This document shows positions 3,138-52,859 of a stretch of 64,000 nucleotides of DNA, piece by piece. A program made the translations under genes and the position numbers. Position 1 is the stretch's first letter; each line of letters starts with the position of its first letter. Below the pieces are notes generated by a model, which was not told the origin of the DNA, made no database searches, and saw only the letters and a program-made list of their open reading frames with translations. Origin of the DNA: Octopus sinensis (Eukaryota); contig NC_042999.1 of the NCBI RefSeq assembly GCF_006345805.1, positions 63,612,001-63,676,000 of the forward strand, read 5' to 3'.

Positions 3138-5994
3138 GTAAGTATGTTATATTTGCTGTTTCCACTGTTATGCCACTTGGTGATATTCATGAAGGATACC
3201 CAGTTTGAAAATAAGCCAGTCTAATCTCATCCTGTTATCAATAATCTTTTAGTCTGTGATTGCTTAACAATGACAAAAATAACAAAAACTCCAATTTAAT
3301 AATAGCCAGGTTCACACCCACCTGTCTCGCTATCATCATCATCATCAATAGTATTAATATGCTAAATTTTTGTTTTTGTACGTACCTGCTGCATGCGTCA
3401 CACTTCAAAGGAGTGGCAAAGCAAGAGAGAGGTGGACAGAGAGGAAGTAAGAGAGAGAGAGAGAGTGAAAGAGACTGAGTGGTGTTTGTTTTATGTTTTT
3501 AAATGTTTCAGAGAGGACGTAAGAGAGAAAGAGAGTGAAAGAGACAGTGAGTGGTGACAGGGTTCATTTTGTGTTTTTAAATGTTTATCACATTGCAACA
3601 GAAGCAGATACATAGATACATACATACACACATTGTTAAATCAAAAGTGGGAAAGAAGAGGAACACAAAGGAAGTGAGAGACGGTAGATACATAAATCCA
3701 AAGAAAAGTTCATACATAGGACACAGAAAATATTGGCTGTCAATTTCACTTTTCAATACCACACGAGGATAAAATTAACTGACAAATGGCTGAGTACTCC
3801 ATAGACATGCATAACATTAACGTAGTTCTCAAGGAGATTCAGCCTCACACAGAATATGACAAGGCTGGCGCCTTTGAATTACATCTACAACTCGAGACAT
3901 ATGAATGTATTTGTGTGTGTGTGTATAGTATAGGTTAGTTAAAACATGTTTGCAATAATAAGTGTTATGTGATCGAAATAACCACAATTACCAAACTTTC
4001 ATTCATAAATCCATTTATTATTTCATTATTTTGCATTTCAATTTGTACATTTGTACCCAGAAATTTTCAACAACTGCATGCCAGAAGAAATGGAAAAATG
4101 AGTAATTTTATCTCCTAAAAATTCTGACTGTCTTGCAATAAATGTAAAAGTTCTTAATATCATACCAGGGGCACTTAAAACGTATTTAGGCACAGATTCA
4201 GTGTCCTGCAATAATGAAGAGGAGGTTCAGAACTATCCATTTGAATTCATAAACTCACTCACTCATCGCCTCAACTTAAAAGTAGGAGCTATTGTAATGC
4301 TACTAAGAAATCTTTCCATCAGTCAGGGATTATGTAATGGAACTTGCATGAAAGTGCAAAGACTTCATGAACATTGTGTAGAGGCATTATTTGTAACGGG
4401 CTCCAACAGAGGTCGTACATTTCTAATTCCCAGAATTAAATTTAGCCCAAGTGATGCAAATATTCCATTCACACTAAACAGACTTCAGTTTCCACTTCAA
4501 CTTGCATATTCAATAACAATAAGGCTCAAGGGCAAACATTTGAAAAAGTTGGAATACGTTTGCCTCGACCGGTTTTTTCTTATGGCCAATTATATGTCGT
4601 ATTTTCAAGAGCATGAGCTATATCAAAGTAGGAGTTATGACACTCAATTGGGATAACAGTCAAAGCCAAAAACACACAAAATATTGTCTACCATGAAGTA
4701 CTGTGAGGAAGACCACCGCACCAGTTAGCATCACCACCACACCAGCTGCTCCATCATTACGCATCCACATTACACCTTTAAGATCAACATACCAACAAAC
4801 CACAAAATCGCACCAGCCGGCATCACTGCTACCTCCAAGGCCATCGTATATATATATATATGTATATGTATGTATGTGTGTTTGTGTCTATTTGTCACAC
4901 CACCATTGCTTGACAACTGATGTTGGTGTGTTTGCGTCCCTGTAATTTAGCTGTTCAGCAGAAGAGACTGATAGAGTAAGCACCAGGCTTACAGGGAATA
5001 AGTCCAGAGGTCAATTTCTTCGACTAAAGGGTGGTGCTCCAGCATGGCCACCATCAAATAACTTAAAGAATAAAAGAATATCAGAAAAACATTCCGTACC
5101 ACTAAACCAAGAAGGTCCTTTGAATATATACGATGTATTTTAAGGTTAAATAGTAATTCCGTTTACATTTGTGTGACTGAGATATTTTGGTTGGATTGTA
5201 TAGTCTTTGGTGTTACATTACTTTCTATATTCTGTAACTCACTATATACTTTTCTAGGCCTGAAATTTTTGTGGGGCGGGGGGCCAGTTGATAAGATCGA
5301 CCCCAGTACACAATTGGTACTTAATTTATCGACCCTGAAAGGATGTAAGGTAAAGTCGACCTCGGTAGAATTTGAACTCAGAACATAAAGACAGATGGTC
5401 ATAATATGCAAACATGGCATCAGTACAGTTTACAGATGCTTACATTTTTTATGTTTTCCGTGAATTTTTCACAGGTCCAGCTAGTTATAAACAAATAGCA
5501 GTAGTTTCTCTGAGCTACTTATAGTGTTTCCTTTTTTAGAAGAAGTAATCAATTATTACATAATATACTTTTATTTAGTCTCACAGCATGGCAGCTTGTG
5601 CAAGGGTCTTCTATAGTCCTGGGATAACCACACCTTGTGAGTGGATTTGGTACATAGAAACTGAAAATTTGTTGTGTATGTATATATACATACCAGCCTA
5701 AGATGTTTGTTTTCGTTCGGTTTCCTTGTATGTCTCCACTGACCTGTTTTTGTTCCCAACTTTGACCCTCCATAAATCTCAAATTTTATTTTGGTACTTA
5801 TGGGAGCAACTGTCTTCAAAGACTCATATTGTCATTCAGTGCTCGAAATGAGGTGTAGATAGACAGCGGACGATTGATGAGGGGTCGTTCTTTATGTTAC
5901 TTGTCCTGTTTTCCATTTGTTTCTCTCGTTGTTAGCGTATTGAATTAATTTGTTTTTGTATTTCATGTTGTTTACTGTTGGTGATGTCCTGTAC

Positions 5995-39536: not shown

Positions 39537-39656
39537 TCACATTGGAAGTAAGTGTTCATCACGCTCATCTTCATCTTCAAGCTGGTCATCACCAATTCCT
39601 TTATAAGTTTTCTGTTGAGTTGAACTTCCAGATCGACAAGTTAAGTTACAGCCATC
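39537..39656 (-). CDS. M6PR: M6PR last exon [39 protein letters not shown]
   Basis: ttctag| acceptor on -; acidic cluster-dileucine DEHLLPM C-terminus. Confidence 0.97.
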   Translation of the reverse strand, partial: DGCNLTCRSGSSTQQKTYKGIGDDQLEDEDERDEHLLPM

Positions 39657-42600: not shown

Positions 42601-43909
42601 GAACAAGACCCCAGGCATGTTTGATGTAGAGAAGTAGAAACAAGTAACACCATTTAACCCTTTAGTATTCAGATTATTCTGTCAAATGTAATGCTTATGT
42701 AATCAAATTGGTTTGAATTAATCATGCAAAAGCATCATAGCACTGAAATTTTGAGGATGTGACTGCTTATTCTTAGAATGACATTGTAGGATAAGTGTGC
42801 AAAGCCAGATCTGGACGGTTTGAACATAGAACAGGTAGAATATTTGGGCCGGATATGGCCGGTTTAAATGCTAAAGGGTTAAGGAGGCTTTTGTTTACAA
42901 AGATCACATAACATGAGAAAACCTGTCAGGAACCATCGGCTGTTTCCAAGTACGGTCATATGGTGGCCAGACGTTTTTTCACAGGAGACTGGAATTGAAG
43001 AACATCACTTGCATGATGCTGATGATGTTTGTTTACAGTCATCACATCATATCAAGAAACGGTACACACACATACATACATATATATACATATACACATA
43101 CACACATACATACATATATATACATATACACACACACATACATACATATATATACATATACACATACATACATACATATATATACATATACACATACATA
43201 CATACATACATATATATACATATACACATACATACATACATACATATATATACATATACATACATACATACACATATATATACATATACATACATACATA
43301 CACATATATATACATATACATACATACATACATACATATATACATATACACATACATACATACATACATATATATACATATACACATACATACATACATA
43401 CATATATATACATATACACATACATACATACATACATATATATACATATACACATACATACATACATACATATATATACATATACATACATACATACATA
43501 TATATACATATACACATACATACATACATATATATACATATACACATACATACATACATATATATACATATACACATACATACATACATATATATACATA
43601 TACACATACATACATACATATATATACATATACACATACATACATACATATATATACATATACACATACATACATACATATATATACATATACACATACA
43701 TACATACACATATATACATATACACATACATACATATACACATACATACATATACACATACATACATATACACATACATACATACATATATACATATACA
43801 CATACATACATACATACATATATATATATATACATACATATACATACATATACATACATATATATATACATATACATACATACATATATATATACATACA
43901 TATACATAC

Positions 43910-43942
<33 letters not shown>

Positions 43943-45904
43943 CATATACAATACATACATATATATAATACATACATATACATACATATATATATATACA
44001 TACATATACATACATACATACATATACATACATACATACATATACATACATATATATATATATACATACATATACATACATATATATATATATATACATA
44101 CATATATATATATATACATACATATACATACATATATATATATATACATACATATACATACATATATATATACATACATATATACATATACATACATACA
44201 TGTATATATTATATATACACACAAGCTTCTTTCAGTTTCCATCTACCAAATACACTCACAAGGCTTTGGTTGAGCCAGTGCTATAGCTGAAAAGATTTGG
44301 CCAAGGTGCCATTCAGTGGGACTGAACCCAACTGGATGCCCTTCCGAACCCAAGACCAATCGGTTGGGAAGCAAGCTTCTTACTAATATTAAAATCATCT
44401 TAAAGCAGCGTGCTGGCAGAGTTGTTAGCAAGCTGGGCAAAATACTTAGTGGCATTTAATCCATATTTATGTTCTGAGTTCAAATATCACTAAGTTCAAC
44501 TTGCCTTTAATCCTTTTGGAGTCAATAAACTAAATACCAGTTGAGGACTGGGGTTGATCTAATTAACTTACCCGTTCTCCTGAACTTGCTGGCTTTGAGC
44601 CAAAATTTGAAACCAATATTAATAATCGTCTTGACATTAATAATAAAAGATTAATTATAGACCTACTTACCGCCAGTAAGTTACCAAAATCTTGCCAAAA
44701 TCCATAATTTGGTATTTGTTCAAGGCCCTTTGCTTCTAAGACAAACCTCATGTATAAGAAGCCAATAACAAAGTAGGCAACAACAATACTGATAAAACTG
44801 TCAAAGAGACAACATATTAAAAACATATTTTAAAAAGGAAATAAGGATCTTATATTTTAATCAATCATAATTTAATTTGAAGCGGGTGTTAAAAGCTAAC
44901 TAGAAATAATAACTTTACAATAGCTTATAATATAAGAACATGTACAGTGACATTACAATTACTACTGCCTATACAACCCCTAATAAACACTAATTCCCAT
45001 GAGGAGAGTGTGAGTTCTGACACTTGGGAAGATAAAAATAAAATATGAGTAGAATCAAAATGATATTACTTGACTATTTTTATTGTTCTGCTAAGTCATC
45101 ATCATCATCGTTTAACATCCGTTTTCCATGCTAGCATGGGTTGGACGGTTCAACCGGGGTCTGGGAAGCCAGGATCTGCACCAGGCACCAGTCTGATCTG
45201 GCCGTGTTTCTACAACTGGATGCCCTTCCTAACGCCAACCACTCCGTGAGTGTAGTGGTTGCTTTTTACGTGCCAGGCGAGGCTGGCAACGGCCATGATC
45301 GGTTGGTGCTTTTTACGTGCCACCGGCACAGAAGCCAGTCAAGGCGGCGCTGTCATCGGCCACGTTCAGATGGTGCTTTTTACGTGCCACCTCCAAACAT
45401 GTTACAGACTATTCTGACCTCATCAGCAATGCATAAGCTGTCAAAGTAGTGATGGAAGAATTGCTAAGTAAATATAAAAGTTTCAGTAGTTAATTCAACT
45501 GCATGACTTTGATAATATGGTCAGTGTCATCTACAGAACACATTACATACTGATGTTTGTGAGGACCAAACTTTACAGCAGGGGTGCTCAACCAGAGTCC
45601 AGATGGCCTTTGTGGGTCTAAATAAGATTTTCTTATTAAAATTTGTGCAGTAAATTGCTGATACTTCTACAATGCACAAAATATTTTTATTTTTTTAGAC
45701 AACAGGTGCAGGAGTGGCTGTGTGGTATGAAGCTTGCTTCCTAACCACATGGTTCCAGGTTCAGCCCCACTGTGTGGAACCTTGAACAAGTGTCTTCCAC
45801 TATAACCTTGGGCTGACCAAAGCTTTGTGAAACAGAAAGAAGCCCATCATGTGTATGTGTGTGTGTGCGTGCGAGTGTGTATATATATATATATACATAT
45901 ATAT

Positions 45905-46638: not shown

Positions 46639-49600
46639 ATATGTGTGTGTGTATGTATATATTTGTGTGTGTGTGTGTGTGTGTCTGTGTCATCCCCCCA
46701 TCGCTTGTCAAATGATGTTGGTATGCTTACGTCGCCTATAACTTAGTGGTTTGGCAAAAGAGACCGACAGAATAAGTACTAGGCCTACAAAGAATGAGTC
46801 CTGTGGTCAATTTATTTGACTAACGGCAGTGCTCCAGCATGGCCACAGTCAAGTGATTGAAACAAGTAAAAGAAATAAATTCCTAATAATATTTAATCGT
46901 AAAGTTACAGTAGGATGTTTCTTATACACATCAAAAGGCTGTGAGGGTCCAGTAGAATAAAATGGGAACAAAAGGGGATCCATAGGAAAAAAATGGTTGG
47001 AAAACACTGCTTGACAGTATGAGAGCACCATAGTTTACTACAACTACCAACTTTTTTTTTTTTTACTTGTTTAAGTCATTTGACTGTGGCCATGCTGGAG
47101 TACCGCCTTTAGTTGAGCTATTTGACCCCAGGACTTATTCTTTGTAAGCCTAGTACTTATTCTATTGATCTCTTTTGCCGAACCGCTAAGTTACGGGGAT
47201 GTAAATACACCAGCATCGGTTGTCAAGCGATGTTGTGGGGGACAAACACAAACATATACACACACTCATATATATATATATATATACGACGGGCTTCTTT
47301 CAGTTTCCGTCAACCAAATCCACTCACAAGGCTTTGGTCAGCCCGAAGCTATAGTAGAAGACACTTGCCCAAGGTGCCACGCAGTGGGACTGAACCTGGA
47401 TCCATGTGGTTCGTAAGCAAGCTACTTACCACACAGCCACTGCTACGCCTACAGTCACTCCTTCGCCTACAATTTTTATAAATCTCTCTCTCGCTTTCTT
47501 TCTTCCAACGGGTGTAATTGGTAGAACATGTTAGAGTGATATGAATAGTAGGAAGGTGTATTCCATAGCTGAATGTCTGATTCTGTAATATAAGAGAGGC
47601 TGGAAATGGCAGGAATAATAGTTTTTACTAAGGGAGATAAATCTTGCTTGCATAACTTCGCGCAAACGAAATAAACAATCTTTAACAACTTAGCTATGAA
47701 CAAATTGAGCTGTAAGAGGTAACATGCTACATTTCGACCTACAGCCAACAATTGAGCTCCTACGTGCTTTAAGTAACAGTCAAACCATTTACAAATTTTT
47801 TGAAGGAGAAACAACAGCAACTTAAATATAAGACAACTTTCCAATATCTTATAATATAAGACTGGGTGCAGTGATATGACTATTAAAAACTAATGTTACA
47901 ACAGCTATTAATACTAATATTTCAGAAATGAGTTGTAGCAAAAGTTAATGATCTGTGAACTTACACAATTACAATGATAGATCCAACACTTATTGATGGT
48001 TGTTTCTTACAGACAGATGGATGTAAAAGTGTAAACACATAGTAGTTATCAGTTTTCTTGATGTTTTGAGAGATAATTTGAATTTGGGGATTATCCTGTA
48101 AATAAGAGAAAAACAAACAAATCAAGTGAACATTGTAGGCAGGAAACAAGAACATATAACATACTGGTAATGATTTCAATATCAAACAAAAAAGCACTGA
48201 GTTGGTAGAATTCTTATCATGCCAGACAAAATGCTTTGCAGCATTTCTTCTGGTTTTATGTTCTGAATTCAAATTCTGCTGTGGTCAACTTCGCCCTTAA
48301 TCCTTTTGGGATCAATAAAATAAGAACCATTGTGATCAGTGTAACTGACTGGCTCACTTCCCCCAAGCTTTCAACATTGTGCCTATATCATCATCATCAT
48401 CATCGTCGTCATTTAACTTCCGTTTTCCATGCTAGCATGGGTTGGACGGTTCGACCGGGGTCTAGGAAGCCAGAAGGCTGCACCAGGCTCCAGTGTGATC
48501 TGGCAGTGTTTCTACAGCTGGATGCCCTTCCTAACGCCAACCACTCCGTGGGTGTAGTGGGTGCTTCTATGTGCCACCGGCACAGGGGCCAGAGAAGGCT
48601 GGAAACGTCCACAATCGGTTGGTGCTGTTTACGTGCCACCGCCATTGATGCCAGTCAAGGCGGCGCTGGCATTGGCCACATTTGGATGGTGCTTTTTAAG
48701 TGCTGCCGGCACAGGTATCACAACTACAATTTCAATTTGATATTTATTTTGATGTTGATATACTTGACTCAATAGGTCTCCTCAAGCACAGCAGGTCGCC
48801 CTACAATCCAAGGTAAGCACAGCAGGCCGTCCTGCGAGCCATGAACTCACTTCATCTGTCAGGTCTTCGCAGTCACAGCATATCTCCAGAGGTCTATACT
48901 AGAAAGAAATACTGGTTTTAAATTTCGGCACAAGGCTGGAAGTTTTTGGGGAGGGGGGTAAGTCAATTACATCAGCCCCAGTGTTCAACTGGTACTTATC
49001 TTATTGACCCTGAAAGGATAAAAGCAAAGTCGACCCTGGTGGAATTAGAACTCAGAACGTAAAGATGGACCAAATGCTGCTAATCATTTTGCCCAGCATG
49101 ATAACAATTCTGCCAGCTCTCCGCCTTGGACTAGAAAGAAATATTAAGCAATCATCATTATAATCATTTAATGTTCATCTTCCAAGCTGGCATGGCTTGG
49201 ACTATACATAGCAAAACTTCAATATTATGTATGTATCATCATTATCACTTACATCAATTTTTCCATACCTACATCTCTTCTAAGCTAATATTCTTCTGAA
49301 TAAATGCTGTTGCAACTCTTTCTGTTACTTTAATAACTTCCCCCACCAATTTGATGACTTCAAGTAGATTCTTTTGAGAGCAATTCATTTTTTTTCTTGC
49401 AGTAGTTGATAATGAAACTGGTATGACATATATTAGATATGACACCTCTCTGTTCTACTTGATTATGCAAATATCAAGAACAGAATGTCTTCAAATTTAT
49501 CAAGTATTTTCAGCATTTTAGAGACTATCTCTAATGGTCCAGCTGTTTTCATTGCCTCATGTACCCTTTCAACCACTTAATGATTAACTGATTTTAAACA

Positions 49601-50622
49601 GCTGTTCCTCTGTTAGGCAGTGGATAACAGAATTGTTAAGAGTGTTTGGATGAAATATCATGTAGTATTTCTCCTGACTACTTTTATTCTATATTCCTGG
49701 ATGATAGATTAATCAGTCACCCAGTCTGACTTAACCTCCTGATCCCTGGATGCCCTTAATGCAGGTCCCTCAGTTTTAAGCATCAAGGCTAGGTTTCCAG
49801 TCATAAGTTAACTTCCTCCTCAACTCCCACCAGTCTTGGAGGTTCTAAAAAAAAGTAGCATGGAAAACAAATCAAACTGTTGGACGTTGTCCTCCTTTTC
49901 TTGATTAAGCTGAAAAAATAAATTTCATTAGTCTGGGAAAGTCCCACATATGTCATGGATTTAATCCTGCCTTCTCAGACAAATTAATAAAACTAGATAA
50001 ACAAAAATTACTTACATCAGTTGCAGATTCGTCACAAATGATCATAAGAAGAGCCTTCTTCTTATTGTAGGTATTGCGATATTCTAACGATACCCAGTTA
50101 TCTGTTGAAGTATAAATATATAGAATATATGCATAAATATATAGAATATATGTGTGTGTTTGTATACATACATACATAGTCATTCATTTTAAGTCCATTT
50201 TCATATGAAAGCAAAAATAGGAAGAACACTTACTGAGGCATTAATTTGCAGATGAATGAACTTCTCAATGCTAGCTCTCAACTATTTTTCAAGTAAAGAA
50301 CCTTTATATATCACTTGTCATCAAATTAACAGTTAAGTTCAACGTAACATCACTGTTCATTTTGGTCAAATGTTTCATACAAATATGTGGAATGTAAATA
50401 TTCTCATACACAGATACCACACACACACACATTAATCATTGAAATTCCAAGCAAGTCTGATTTTCATTTTTATTACTTACAATTTTTACAATTTTACAAT
50501 ATTATAATGATAGAATATCATATATCTATTGTGATAAGACTAGTATTTTCATGCACTATGCAATGATTAGGTTTATGTAGTAGTAGTGACAGTTGTATTC
50601 CACAATTGACAACTATATATAT

Positions 50623-51143: not shown

Positions 51144-52859
51144 GGTTGTTTATATATCATTATCCTCATCATTGTTTTACCATCTACTTTTCCATACTTG
51201 CATGGATCAGATGAGGCCAGATACCCTTCCTGTTACCAACTATCTTTTGTTTCCAAAGAATTAATAATCACCCAGTCTACTGAACAATTAACAGCCCAGA
51301 TATGTTTTATGCAAGGAACTGGAAACAAACAACACTGTTTAAGGAGCTTTCTGTTTACAAAGATTACACAACATGTCAATATATGTTGTGAGGCTCGGAT
51401 ATCCTTTCAAGGTGGACAAGAAACCAAGGACACCAGCAGGATCCATTGTTTACAAATCAGTAAATATGAGGGAAACACACAAACACATTTTCCAACACAT
51501 GCCAGTGTGGAAGATGGATGTTAAACAACAATGAAGACGATGATATAGATATACAACGCATACACACAATGTGCTTCTTCAGTTTCTGTTAACCATATCC
51601 ACTTAGAAGGCTTTGGTCAGCCTGGGGCTATAGTAGAAAACATTTGCCTAAAGTGCTATGCAGTGGGACAGAATCCAAAACTATGTGATTGGGAAATGAA
51701 CTTCACTAGCCACATAGGAATTATTTAAAGTTAGTGAATATTAAATAAAAATTCATAAAAATAAAAATTTAAAATTTATAAAATACAATTAAAAATTTAT
51801 AAAATAAAAATGCAACTCAGTGCAAGGAAGTAAAATCTGCAAGTCCCAGGTAAACTATTTCTGGGGAAACAAAAGGAGATAATATCCTTGTTGGAAAATC
51901 TTTGATCATATATCTGCTCAATCAGAGCTAATCTAAGGCTAATCATAACAACATACATTATAGGCATACCATTTACTGTTCAGGTTTCACAATCATACAT
52001 GCTTATGCAATTTTAAAATGCCATTTTAGAACAAAATAAAAAAACTGAAATCATCATCATCATCATTTAACGTCCGCTTTCCATGCTAGCATGGGTTGGA
52101 CGATTTAATTGAGGACTGGCGAACCAGATGGCTGCACCAGGCTCCAATCTGATCTGGCAGAGTTTCTATAGCTGGATGCCCTTCCTAACGCCAACCATTC
52201 CGAGTGTGTAGTGCGTGCTTTTACGTGCCACCAGCATGAGAGCTAATCTGGCGGTACTGGCAACGGCCATGCTCAAATGGTGTTTTTTACGTGCCACCTA
52301 CACAGGAGGCAGTCCAGCGACCTTGCTTGAATGTTTTGTTCATGTGACAGTCAGGCGATGCTGGTAACGATCACGCTCAAATGGTGCTTTTTACGTGCCA
52401 CATAATAATTATTTTATTAAATTCGTCATTGCTTTCAAAATAACTGTAAACAAAGGCAGCATATTTCAACAAAACTATAGTAATGAAAAGATTAATGACT
52501 TTGTGAAATTCAATATCTTGAGATTTGTCTTCACCACTTCATCCTAAGGTTTCTAGGATCACCCTCTTGCAATTCTTCCATCCACACTGAGTTCTTGGCA
52601 CATCTTTAGCAAGCTGTTATCACTCACCTACTTCACATGAGCATATCAACACAGAAGAAAAACAAAATATTTAAAAAAATTTTGTTACTTACCCCCATCT
52701 AATATGTAGGTGTTCGTGATATTGCCAATGACAGTACTGGTCTTGTCAGCACTTTTTATCTGTAGTACAGCAATATCATCTTGGTTAGCACTCTCCATAA
52801 TTGCAGTACATACACCAATGTTATAAATATATTTACCCATCATACCAACAACTTTAAAC
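39537..52859 (-). CDS. M6PR: Cation-dependent mannose-6-phosphate receptor homolog, 5'-partial: complement(join(39537..39656,44671..44797,47965..48095,50016..50101,52693..52859))
   Basis: Phase-consistent GT-AG exons encoding an MRH domain, the TM segment [24 protein letters not shown], and a tail [24 protein letters not shown]...YKGIGDDQL...ERDEHLLPM* that closely matches vertebrate CD-MPR. Confidence 0.95.
42658..42878. mobile_element. piggyBac-like MITE, second family
   Basis: TTAA|CCCTTTAG...CTAAAGGG|TTAA. Confidence 0.75.
43062..44222. repeat. Compound (TA/CA/TACA)n microsatellite expansion
   Basis: ~1.16 kb made almost entirely of A, C and T, with an exact 30-bp unit repeated at 43501-43700. 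Confidence 0.97.
44671..44797 (-). CDS. M6PR: M6PR exon (V)[42 protein letters not shown]
   Basis: Transmembrane segment plus AKG.EQ.P...FW.D.G; tgacag| and |gtaagt. Confidence 0.96.
46279..46574 (+). mobile_element. Non-autonomous Helitron (family A) within a (TA)n tract
   Basis: Same termini and body as 30976-31370, with internal differences. Confidence 0.8.
47965..48095 (-). CDS. M6PR: M6PR exon [43 protein letters not shown]
   Basis: ttacag| and |gtaagt on -. Aligns to ...FYLFEMDSSLAC...LSVGSILLV. Confidence 0.92.
50016..50101 (-). CDS. M6PR: M6PR exon (D)[28 protein letters not shown]
   Basis: caacag| and |gtaagt on -. Aligns to NWIMLIY...RRAVVMISC. Confidence 0.9.
50971..51116. repeat. 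Near-perfect palindrome, 71-bp arms, 4-nt loop
   Basis: tatatgtgtatattggcagggcaagactgctagg...catcaacgatc AAAC gatcgttgatg...ccaatatacatatata; 3 mismatches. Confidence 0.95.
52693..52859 (-). CDS. M6PR: M6PR exon [55 protein letters not shown]
   Basis: ttaccag| and |gtaagt on -. Aligns to YIFRVC...GLVQINK...VVGRLNETHIFNG. Confidence 0.9.

What the first reader, a model, noticed from the sequence alone, without database searches (positions are those of the whole stretch)
47965..50101. CD-MPR homolog that appears to have lost its mannose-6-phosphate pocket but kept its sorting signals
Seen: the spliced lumenal domain reads ...IAVLQIKS...[22 protein letters not shown]...[17 protein letters not shown]. 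Established: in bovine CD-MPR, Gln66, Arg111, Glu133 and Tyr143 are essential for Man-6-P binding; the Asp103-Asn104-His105-Cys106 loop contacts phosphate and Mn2+; Cys106 pairs with Cys141. My manual alignment keeps Gln66 and Tyr143 but gives Arg111->Lys and Glu133->Gln, shortens the D-N-H-C loop by ~8 residues, and loses both Cys106 and Cys141. The C52, C119 and C153 equivalents remain. The tail keeps FW, two Cys, YKGI and DEHLL. Paired loss of a disulfide in an otherwise intact gene suggests evolved change rather than decay. Inference: this is a lysosomal sorting receptor with a different or M6P-independent ligand.
Basis: partly seen in the sequence, partly recalled or inferred. Interest (0 to 1): 0.72.

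Follow-up and report, generated by a model that had tools for sequence, protein, structure and literature searches.

The report
Octopus lysosomal receptor missing sugar pocket
Three Octopus species and an argonaut have an intact gene for one of the two receptors that deliver enzymes to lysosomes, but it lacks two of the four residues and the loop that grip the sugar-phosphate tag in a cuttlefish and most other animals compared, so it likely no longer reads that tag and likely does another sorting job, while the second receptor, whose binding residues are intact, would handle tagged cargo.

Summary
Observation confirmed. The window holds five of six coding exons of the octopus CD-MPR ortholog. 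The spliced exons equal RefSeq XP_029634022.1 residues 61-269, and 4 of 4 contig sets laid join exon 3 to exon 4 with no recoding at the Arg111 site. Arg111 is Lys, Glu133 is Gln, the phosphate loop is 6 residues instead of 14, and Cys106 and Cys141 are gone. The same state holds in O. vulgaris, O. bimaculoides and Argonauta. In 69 non-octopod orthologs, including the cuttlefish/squid-type sister group, Glu133 and both cysteines are invariant. The loss therefore dates to the incirrate octopod stem; it is not an error or recent decay. The rest of the M6P pathway is present: a CI-MPR with the QREY tetrad in five domains, GNPTAB, NAGPA and LYSET. The predicted fold and the tail signals are kept. 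Best reading: an M6P-blind receptor, freed by redundancy and kept for M6P-independent trafficking. No ligand is identified; a cargo-free scaffold role is nearly as plausible. Pocket-degenerate CD-MPRs arose separately in arthropods and others (17 of 92 representatives), and Drosophila LERP is a precedent. This is a new variant of a known kind.

The parts
52693..52859 (-). Coding exon 2: strands 1-5 of the MRH domain, with Y70 (bovine Tyr45), C77 (Cys52), Q93 (Gln66) and an octopod-specific N-glycan sequon at N106
50016..50101 (-). Coding exon 3: holds the shortened loop, K130 and C138 (Cys119)
50061..50078 (-). Remnant phosphate loop, 6 codons (14 in 67 of 69 non-octopod orthologs); the His105 and Cys106 equivalents are absent
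50058..50060 (-). K130 codon AAG at the Arg111 site; one A-to-G change from Arg, but no such change in the contigs laid
48096..50015 (-). 1920-base GT-AG intron, skipped in the contigs of 4 of 4 runs; contains dispersed repeats, no alternative exon found
47965..48095 (-). Coding exon 4: Q154 (Glu133 site, 48068-48066), N161 (Cys141 site, 48047-48045), Y163 (Tyr143), C173 (Cys153), stalk and start of the TM helix
44671..44797 (-). Coding exon 5: TM helix and membrane-proximal tail with F221-W222
39537..39656 (-). Last coding exon: C233, C237, YKGI (39605-39594), acidic cluster, DEHLL (39560-39546) and stop

Best explanation
[quoted passage not shown] Shown: orthology, the losses, their sharing by Octopus and Argonauta, splicing, and the presence of a CI-MPR with five QREY domains plus GNPTAB, NAGPA and LYSET. 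Predicted: the MRH barrel still folds. Inferred: no M6P binding (about 0.85 on its own); cycling through the tail motifs; redundancy as what allowed the loss; carriage of cargo through protein surfaces, as reported for Drosophila LERP (the weakest step).
For: Orthology: sister to the pocket-intact decapodiform sequences (UFBoot 99; SH-aLRT 99 in the quick tree). Pocket: Gln66, Cys106, Glu133 and Cys141 are 69 of 69 in non-octopods, and all but Gln66 are lost in 4 of 4 octopod sequences. A review names Q66, R111, E133 and Y143 as crucial by mutagenesis (PMC11422237, passage). Expression: the joint is present in 4 of 4 runs. Fold: the AF2 model matches bovine CD-MPR at Z 17.9, rmsd 2.2 A over 138 residues. 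Rates: lumenal stem 0.72 vs 0.22 in decapodiforms (1 of 60 bootstraps reversed); TM and tail 0.18 vs 0.18; within the crown the lumenal domain changes at a decapodiform-like pace, 0.41 vs 0.35. That is a burst followed by ordinary constraint. Back-up: CI-MPR P0090 is encoded in G000 with QREY in domains 3, 5, 8, 9 and 11; GNPTAB CR1-CR4 lie in order on one contig; NAGPA and LYSET match. Precedent: LERP (PMC4610224, passages).
Against: No binding data and no candidate cargo. Lys at the Arg111 site occurs in 4 of 69 orthologs with an otherwise complete pocket, so that change alone is not diagnostic. Outside the pocket the stem acceleration is not significant (5 of 60 bootstraps reversed; relative-rate tests median p 0.2-0.56). 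For O. sinensis the whole-domain relative-rate test is also not significant (p about 0.17; for Argonauta 0.016-0.026). At 37 family-conserved columns Octopus and Argonauta differ at 9 while a decapodiform pair differs at 0, which fits relaxation as well as a new role. The AF2 model was built on an alignment in which 20 of 24 rows have the intact pocket. LERP itself is not essential in flies.
Confidence: 0.45

Rival explanations
1. The lumenal domain has no ligand. The protein is kept because its tail (and presumably its dimer) helps recruit AP-1/GGA coats or retrieval machinery, and the barrel is conserved only to fold and leave the ER.
For: TM and tail are 89% identical between Octopus and Argonauta against 68% for the lumenal part. 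The former pocket loop drifts: the Glu133 site is Gln or Arg or Pro (hand reading), and the Cys141 site is Asn or Lys. Change is concentrated in the pocket.
Against: The crown lumenal/tail difference ratio equals that of a pocket-intact decapodiform pair (34:10 vs 28:8, Fisher p=1). Y70, Q93, K130 and Y163 are kept in 4 of 4 sequences. That MPR tails drive coat formation is recalled, not from a call.
Confidence: 0.28
2. The pocket was remodelled to bind a different glycan, such as neutral high-mannose or an octopod-specific modification, using Y70, Q93, K130 and Y163 once the phosphate loop was removed.
For: Those four residues are kept in all four octopod sequences. MRH domains that bind unphosphorylated mannose share the fold (OS-9 and glucosidase II beta, Z 9-10).
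Against: The QREY tetrad is the usual criterion for sugar binding (bioRxiv 10.64898/2026.10.22.760878, passages). That the Arg and Glu contact the mannose ring itself is recalled. The Glu site is unconstrained in octopods.
Confidence: 0.15
3. The receptor still binds M6P, weakly or after A-to-I editing of the K130 codon to Arg.
For: AAG is one A-to-G edit from AGG. Heavy recoding in coleoids is recalled. Lys occurs naturally at this site in 4 of 69 orthologs.
Against: No T>C at 50059 in 4 of 4 contig sets or in organism D, although contigs drop rare variants. A-to-I editing cannot turn CAA into a Glu codon or restore eight deleted codons and two cysteines.
Confidence: 0.1
4. Assembly, annotation or exon-choice artefact, or a pseudogene beside an intact copy.
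For: Genome searches give lower bounds: one search missed a second, distant MRH-type gene on C9307, which one search found.
Against: The same state appears in four independently annotated species and in spliced contigs. A search with an intact ortholog finds no closer copy. The C9307 gene is a distant type with a different tail.
Confidence: 0.02

Closest known systems
Bovine/human CD-MPR (M6PR; PDB 1C39, 1KEO, 3K41; Pfam PF02157)
   Same: Single MRH domain, TM helix and tail; PF02157 at 341 bits; best structural match; Tyr45, Gln66, Tyr143, two of three disulfide pairs, and the FW, Cys, tyrosine and DxxLL tail motifs are kept.
   Different: Arg111 is Lys, Glu133 is Gln/Arg, the loop with His105-Cys106 is shortened by 8 residues, and the Cys106-Cys141 pair is lost.
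Decapodiform CD-MPR (P0180 Sepia pharaonis; unnamed P0004, P0005, P0183)
   Same: Sister group in the tree; P0005 is 80% identical over TM and tail.
   Different: Full QREY tetrad, loop and both cysteines; P0005 is only 40% identical over the lumenal domain.
Drosophila LERP
   Same: An MPR homolog without the M6P residues that keeps GGA/AP-1 tail signals; reported not to bind phosphomannan yet to partly rescue sorting (PMC4610224, passages).
   Different: LERP is a five-repeat CI-MPR ortholog in an animal reported to lack parts of the tagging pathway. Here the single-domain CD-MPR is affected, and the pathway genes and CI-MPR sites are present.
Pocket-degenerate CD-MPR-like proteins of arthropods, a flatworm and an acanthocephalan (e.g. 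Penaeus P0122, Procambarus P0141, Homalodisca P0093, Chamberlinius P0094)
   Same: Two or more tetrad changes by alignment column, most with an acidic-dileucine tail.
   Different: Separate origin: the octopods nest among molluscs. 13 of these 17 keep both loop cysteines, and many are long-branched. Their genomic context was not tested.

Membership tests
CD-MPR (M6PR) ortholog | Signal peptide, one MRH domain, one TM helix, short tail | tested here: met
   P0024 is fully encoded in G000; Pfam; model
CD-MPR (M6PR) ortholog | Phylogenetic placement among CD-MPRs | tested here: met
   Sister to decapodiform CD-MPRs, UFBoot 99, in a 30-sequence tree
CD-MPR (M6PR) ortholog | Tail motifs FW, two Cys, tyrosine motif, acidic DxxLL near the C-terminus | tested here: met
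   the roles of the motifs are recalled
CD-MPR (M6PR) ortholog | Homodimer through the C-terminal sheet | not tested
M6P-binding P-type lectin | Complete Gln-Arg-Glu-Tyr tetrad | tested here: not met
   Q-K-Q-Y (Q-K-R-Y in O. bimaculoides)
M6P-binding P-type lectin | Phosphate/cation loop with His105-Cys106, and six lumenal cysteines | tested here: not met
   Loop of 6 vs 14 residues; four cysteines (35, 77, 138, 173)
M6P-binding P-type lectin | M6P-inhibitable binding | not testable with these tools
   Needs a binding assay
LERP-type M6P-independent receptor | Multi-repeat CI-MPR ortholog | tested here: not met
   Single domain, CD-MPR clade; it may work like LERP but is not a LERP
LERP-type M6P-independent receptor | Sorts hydrolases without M6P | not testable with these tools
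   Needs rescue in MPR-null cells

The most novel reading that the evidence does not exclude
On the incirrate octopod stem the CD-MPR was rebuilt into a receptor for a new, non-M6P cargo (a burst of lumenal change followed by renewed constraint), in an animal that kept the whole M6P pathway. The octopus/cuttlefish ortholog pair would then expose an M6P-independent function of CD-MPR that is hidden in mammals and may explain why animals keep two MPRs.
Probability: 0.3. Interest if true: 0.72.

Novelty: new variant of a known kind. Interest (0 to 1): 0.48.

Why it matters
Why animals keep a second, small M6P receptor beside the CI-MPR is not settled (own knowledge). Octopods offer a natural separation-of-function allele: pocket removed, fold and tail kept, tagging pathway present, and a close sister lineage with the intact pocket as control. 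Swapping the two orthologs into MPR-null cells would test directly what a CD-MPR does without M6P. It also shows that the database name 'mannose-6-phosphate receptor' probably misdescribes these proteins, and that pocket loss recurs in animals. Interest is limited by the lack of any ligand and by the precedents.

Tried and rejected
Misalignment: rejected; no Arg or Glu is available near the needed positions. Alternative or duplicated exon: none among 3393 frames; the best non-gene hit had E 0.91. A-to-I rescue: not seen in contigs. Loss of the whole M6P pathway: rejected. Compensatory gain of sites in the octopus CI-MPR: rejected, because the same five-domain pattern occurs in P0057 and P0086. 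Vampyroteuthis, cirrate or Nautilus orthologs: none named among the hits, so the loss cannot be dated more finely. The run search listed no holder on record as RNA; RNA status is a guess supported by the skipped intron. Runs X23 and X24 laid nothing, which is no evidence. The PF09451 genome search found nothing, and its control found nothing either. The Atlas search with the C9307 exon gave only leads under 0.9; with the lumenal domain it returned MRH-type clusters. Six papers sought by id were not held, so the primary mutagenesis data were not read. Earlier findings: none returned.

Full report
1. The gene. The finding covers two exons of a minus-strand gene. Five coding exons lie in the window (52859-52693, 50101-50016, 48095-47965, 44797-44671, 39656-39537). 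The four introns between them have GT/AG ends, and spliced by coordinates the exons equal residues 61-269 of P0024. P0024 is RefSeq XP_029634022.1, named CD-MPR of Octopus sinensis. Residues 1-60 are encoded at G000:C3:63678959-63678780, beyond the window. PF02157 found only this locus in G000. A search with a pocket-intact ortholog found this locus and one distant gene on C9307.

2. The observation. Against bovine CD-MPR and orthologs, Tyr45, Gln66 and Tyr143 are kept. Arg111 is K130, Glu133 is Q154, Cys141 is N161, and Cys106 is deleted with its loop. One search aligned 73 sequences: all hits except a short O. vulgaris form (P0002), with P0007 replaced by its full-length cluster member P0183, plus P0024 and P0026. 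Among the 69 non-octopods, Gln66, Cys106, Glu133 and Cys141 are 69 of 69, Tyr143 is 68 of 69 and Arg111 is 65 of 69 (Lys in 4). The loop is 14 residues in 67 of 69 and 6 in all four octopod sequences (O. sinensis, O. vulgaris, O. bimaculoides, Argonauta hians). This set was collected by similarity to cephalopod queries and favours slowly evolving orthologs. No other Arg or Glu is placed to fill the pocket, and no alternative exon exists in the window.

3. Transcripts. The run search listed 24 runs, none on record as RNA; I laid 8 of them. In one search, 4 of 4 runs (two organism codes, four studies) had a contig of 874-2026 bases skipping the 1920-base intron. Exons 3 and 4 were identical to the window in two runs and differed by one synonymous base in the other two. 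The K130 codon AAG is one A-to-I edit from Arg, but no such change appeared; contigs drop rare variants. In one search, X22 (organism D) covered exon 3 with 11 differences and no gap, so it has the same short loop. Only 4 of the 11 differences are listed, none in the K130 codon. Read by hand, its loose ends show direct joins to exon-2-like and exon-4-like sequence and a Pro at the Glu133 site. X23 and X24 laid nothing.

4. Timing and constraint. The octopod proteins are sister to four pocket-intact sequences (UFBoot 99; 30 of the 73 sequences used). One of these clusters with Sepia pharaonis M6PR; the other three are unnamed and called decapodiform by kinship only. The loss therefore lies on the stem of the sampled incirrate octopods. 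In one search (19 sequences, 60 column bootstraps each) the stem lengths, octopod vs decapodiform, were: lumenal 0.72 vs 0.22 (1 of 60 reversed); lumenal without 20 pocket and loop sites 0.65 vs 0.24 (5 of 60); TM plus tail 0.18 vs 0.18 (26 of 60). Relative-rate tests over 24 outgroups were significant for Argonauta (14-15 of 24) but mostly not for O. sinensis (3-4 of 24), and mostly not once the pocket was excluded (1-6 of 24). Within the crown, the lumenal-to-tail ratio equals that of a decapodiform pair. However, 9 of 37 family-conserved columns differ between Octopus and Argonauta against 0 of 37 in that pair; four of the nine are in the former Glu133-Tyr143 segment. So the pocket is dismantled and drifting, and the rest is under roughly ordinary constraint.

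5. Structure. The AF2 model (mean pLDDT 71, 74-90 in ten-residue blocks over residues 41-150) matches bovine CD-MPR best: Foldseek E 8e-11, TM 0.75; Z 17.9, rmsd 2.2 A, 138 residues. A pocket-intact control, P0006, matches better: E 8e-15, TM 0.85. No residue-level superposition was possible, the model leans on intact homologs, and the dimer was not tested.

6. The pathway. G000 encodes a 2340-residue CI-MPR (P0090, near-identical exon by exon; named). A pattern scan scored 12 of its 15 domains (1, 2 and 7 did not match the pattern) and found QREY in domains 3, 5, 8, 9 and 11; domain 15 lacks it. The Gln call in that scan is loose; I checked these five by eye. P0057 and P0086 show the same five, so this is not an octopus gain. 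GNPTAB CR1-CR4 exons lie in order on C7, and NAGPA and LYSET match. These three genes were detected by single domains or exons, not rebuilt in full. The distant C9307 gene keeps Arg, Glu and Tyr equivalents but has no DxxLL, and its Gln exon was not found. It could be a further back-up.

7. Mechanism. Inferred: with M6P recognition covered by the CI-MPR, the octopod CD-MPR lost the tetrad residues and the loop. It likely still folds and cycles through its tail, and it is kept for an M6P-independent role. I put loss of M6P binding at about 0.85. Untagged cargo (0.45) and a cargo-free scaffold (0.28) cannot be separated with these data; an altered glycan ligand (0.15) and residual M6P binding (0.10) follow. 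Recalled and not from a call: that conservative Arg111 and Glu133 point mutants abolish binding in bovine CD-MPR, the role of Asp103/His105, the roles of the tail motifs, and heavy recoding in coleoids.

8. How unusual. Of 150 representatives, 105 were 150-450 residues long. Of those, 13 were left unscored as fragments; of the other 92, 63 have the full tetrad, 11 have one change and 18 have two or more, Argonauta among them (column-based, so some divergent rows may be misaligned). Nine of the other 17 carry names: a millipede, three crustaceans, three insects, a flatworm and an acanthocephalan. In a quick tree of 42 selected rows the octopods sit among molluscs, apart from these (the careful search did not finish). 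Pocket loss therefore recurs. What marks the octopod case is the clean deletion of loop and disulfide, an intact sister lineage, and a retained pathway.

9. Literature. Seen as passages only: PMC11422237 (a review: four residues crucial, three disulfides needed for folding), PMC7481795 (CI-MPR is the primary receptor, with sites in domains 3, 5, 9 and 15; CD-MPR is a dimer), PMC4610224 (LERP) and bioRxiv 10.64898/2026.10.22.760878 (QREY criterion; 'mollusc' occurs 0 times). Ten searches listed no paper on cephalopod MPR pockets; the octopus search gave two unrelated titles, seen as listings only. Most subscription papers are not held. The preprint's supplementary table of 329 MPRs was not seen and may include an octopus sequence.

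10. Verdict. New variant of a known kind, interest 0.48.

Noticed in passing
G000:C9307:64360-73682, minus strand (L037, L048): A second, distant single-pass MRH-type gene: Arg, Glu and Tyr equivalents kept, no Cys106/Cys141 equivalents, tail ending in a tyrosine motif without DxxLL; the 5' exon was not found before the contig end.
   Followed up: partly
P0090, G000:C9:49655184-49815479: The octopus CI-MPR has QREY in domains 8 and 11 as well as 3, 5 and 9. Domain 11 binds IGF2 in mammals. The pattern is shared with other CI-MPRs in the set, so domain 11 may ancestrally be a sugar site.
   Followed up: partly
P0028 (unnamed, 2559 aa): A CI-MPR-like protein with QREY in 15 of 16 scored repeats; P0041, P0042 and P0078 have 9-10 (loose pattern scan).
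   Followed up: no
run X19 on window 50015-50081: A 164-base contig in a DNA-sized run joins exon 3 to exon-4-like sequence with an in-frame stop (hand reading): a possible processed pseudogene in organism C.
   Followed up: no
window 52721-52723: The N106 sequon is the only lumenal N-glycan site. It is fixed in the four octopod proteins and apparently kept in organism D; other lineages mostly have Lys or Arg there.
   Followed up: partly
window 48030-48032: A further residue that is Glu in 97% of orthologs, three after Tyr143, is Thr in the octopods.
   Followed up: no
window 4102-4653, plus strand: An open frame with a Pif1 helicase 2B domain (E 1e-14), probably a Helitron fragment.
   Followed up: partly
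window 42900-44200: About 1.2 kb of AT-rich microsatellite in the last intron.
   Followed up: no
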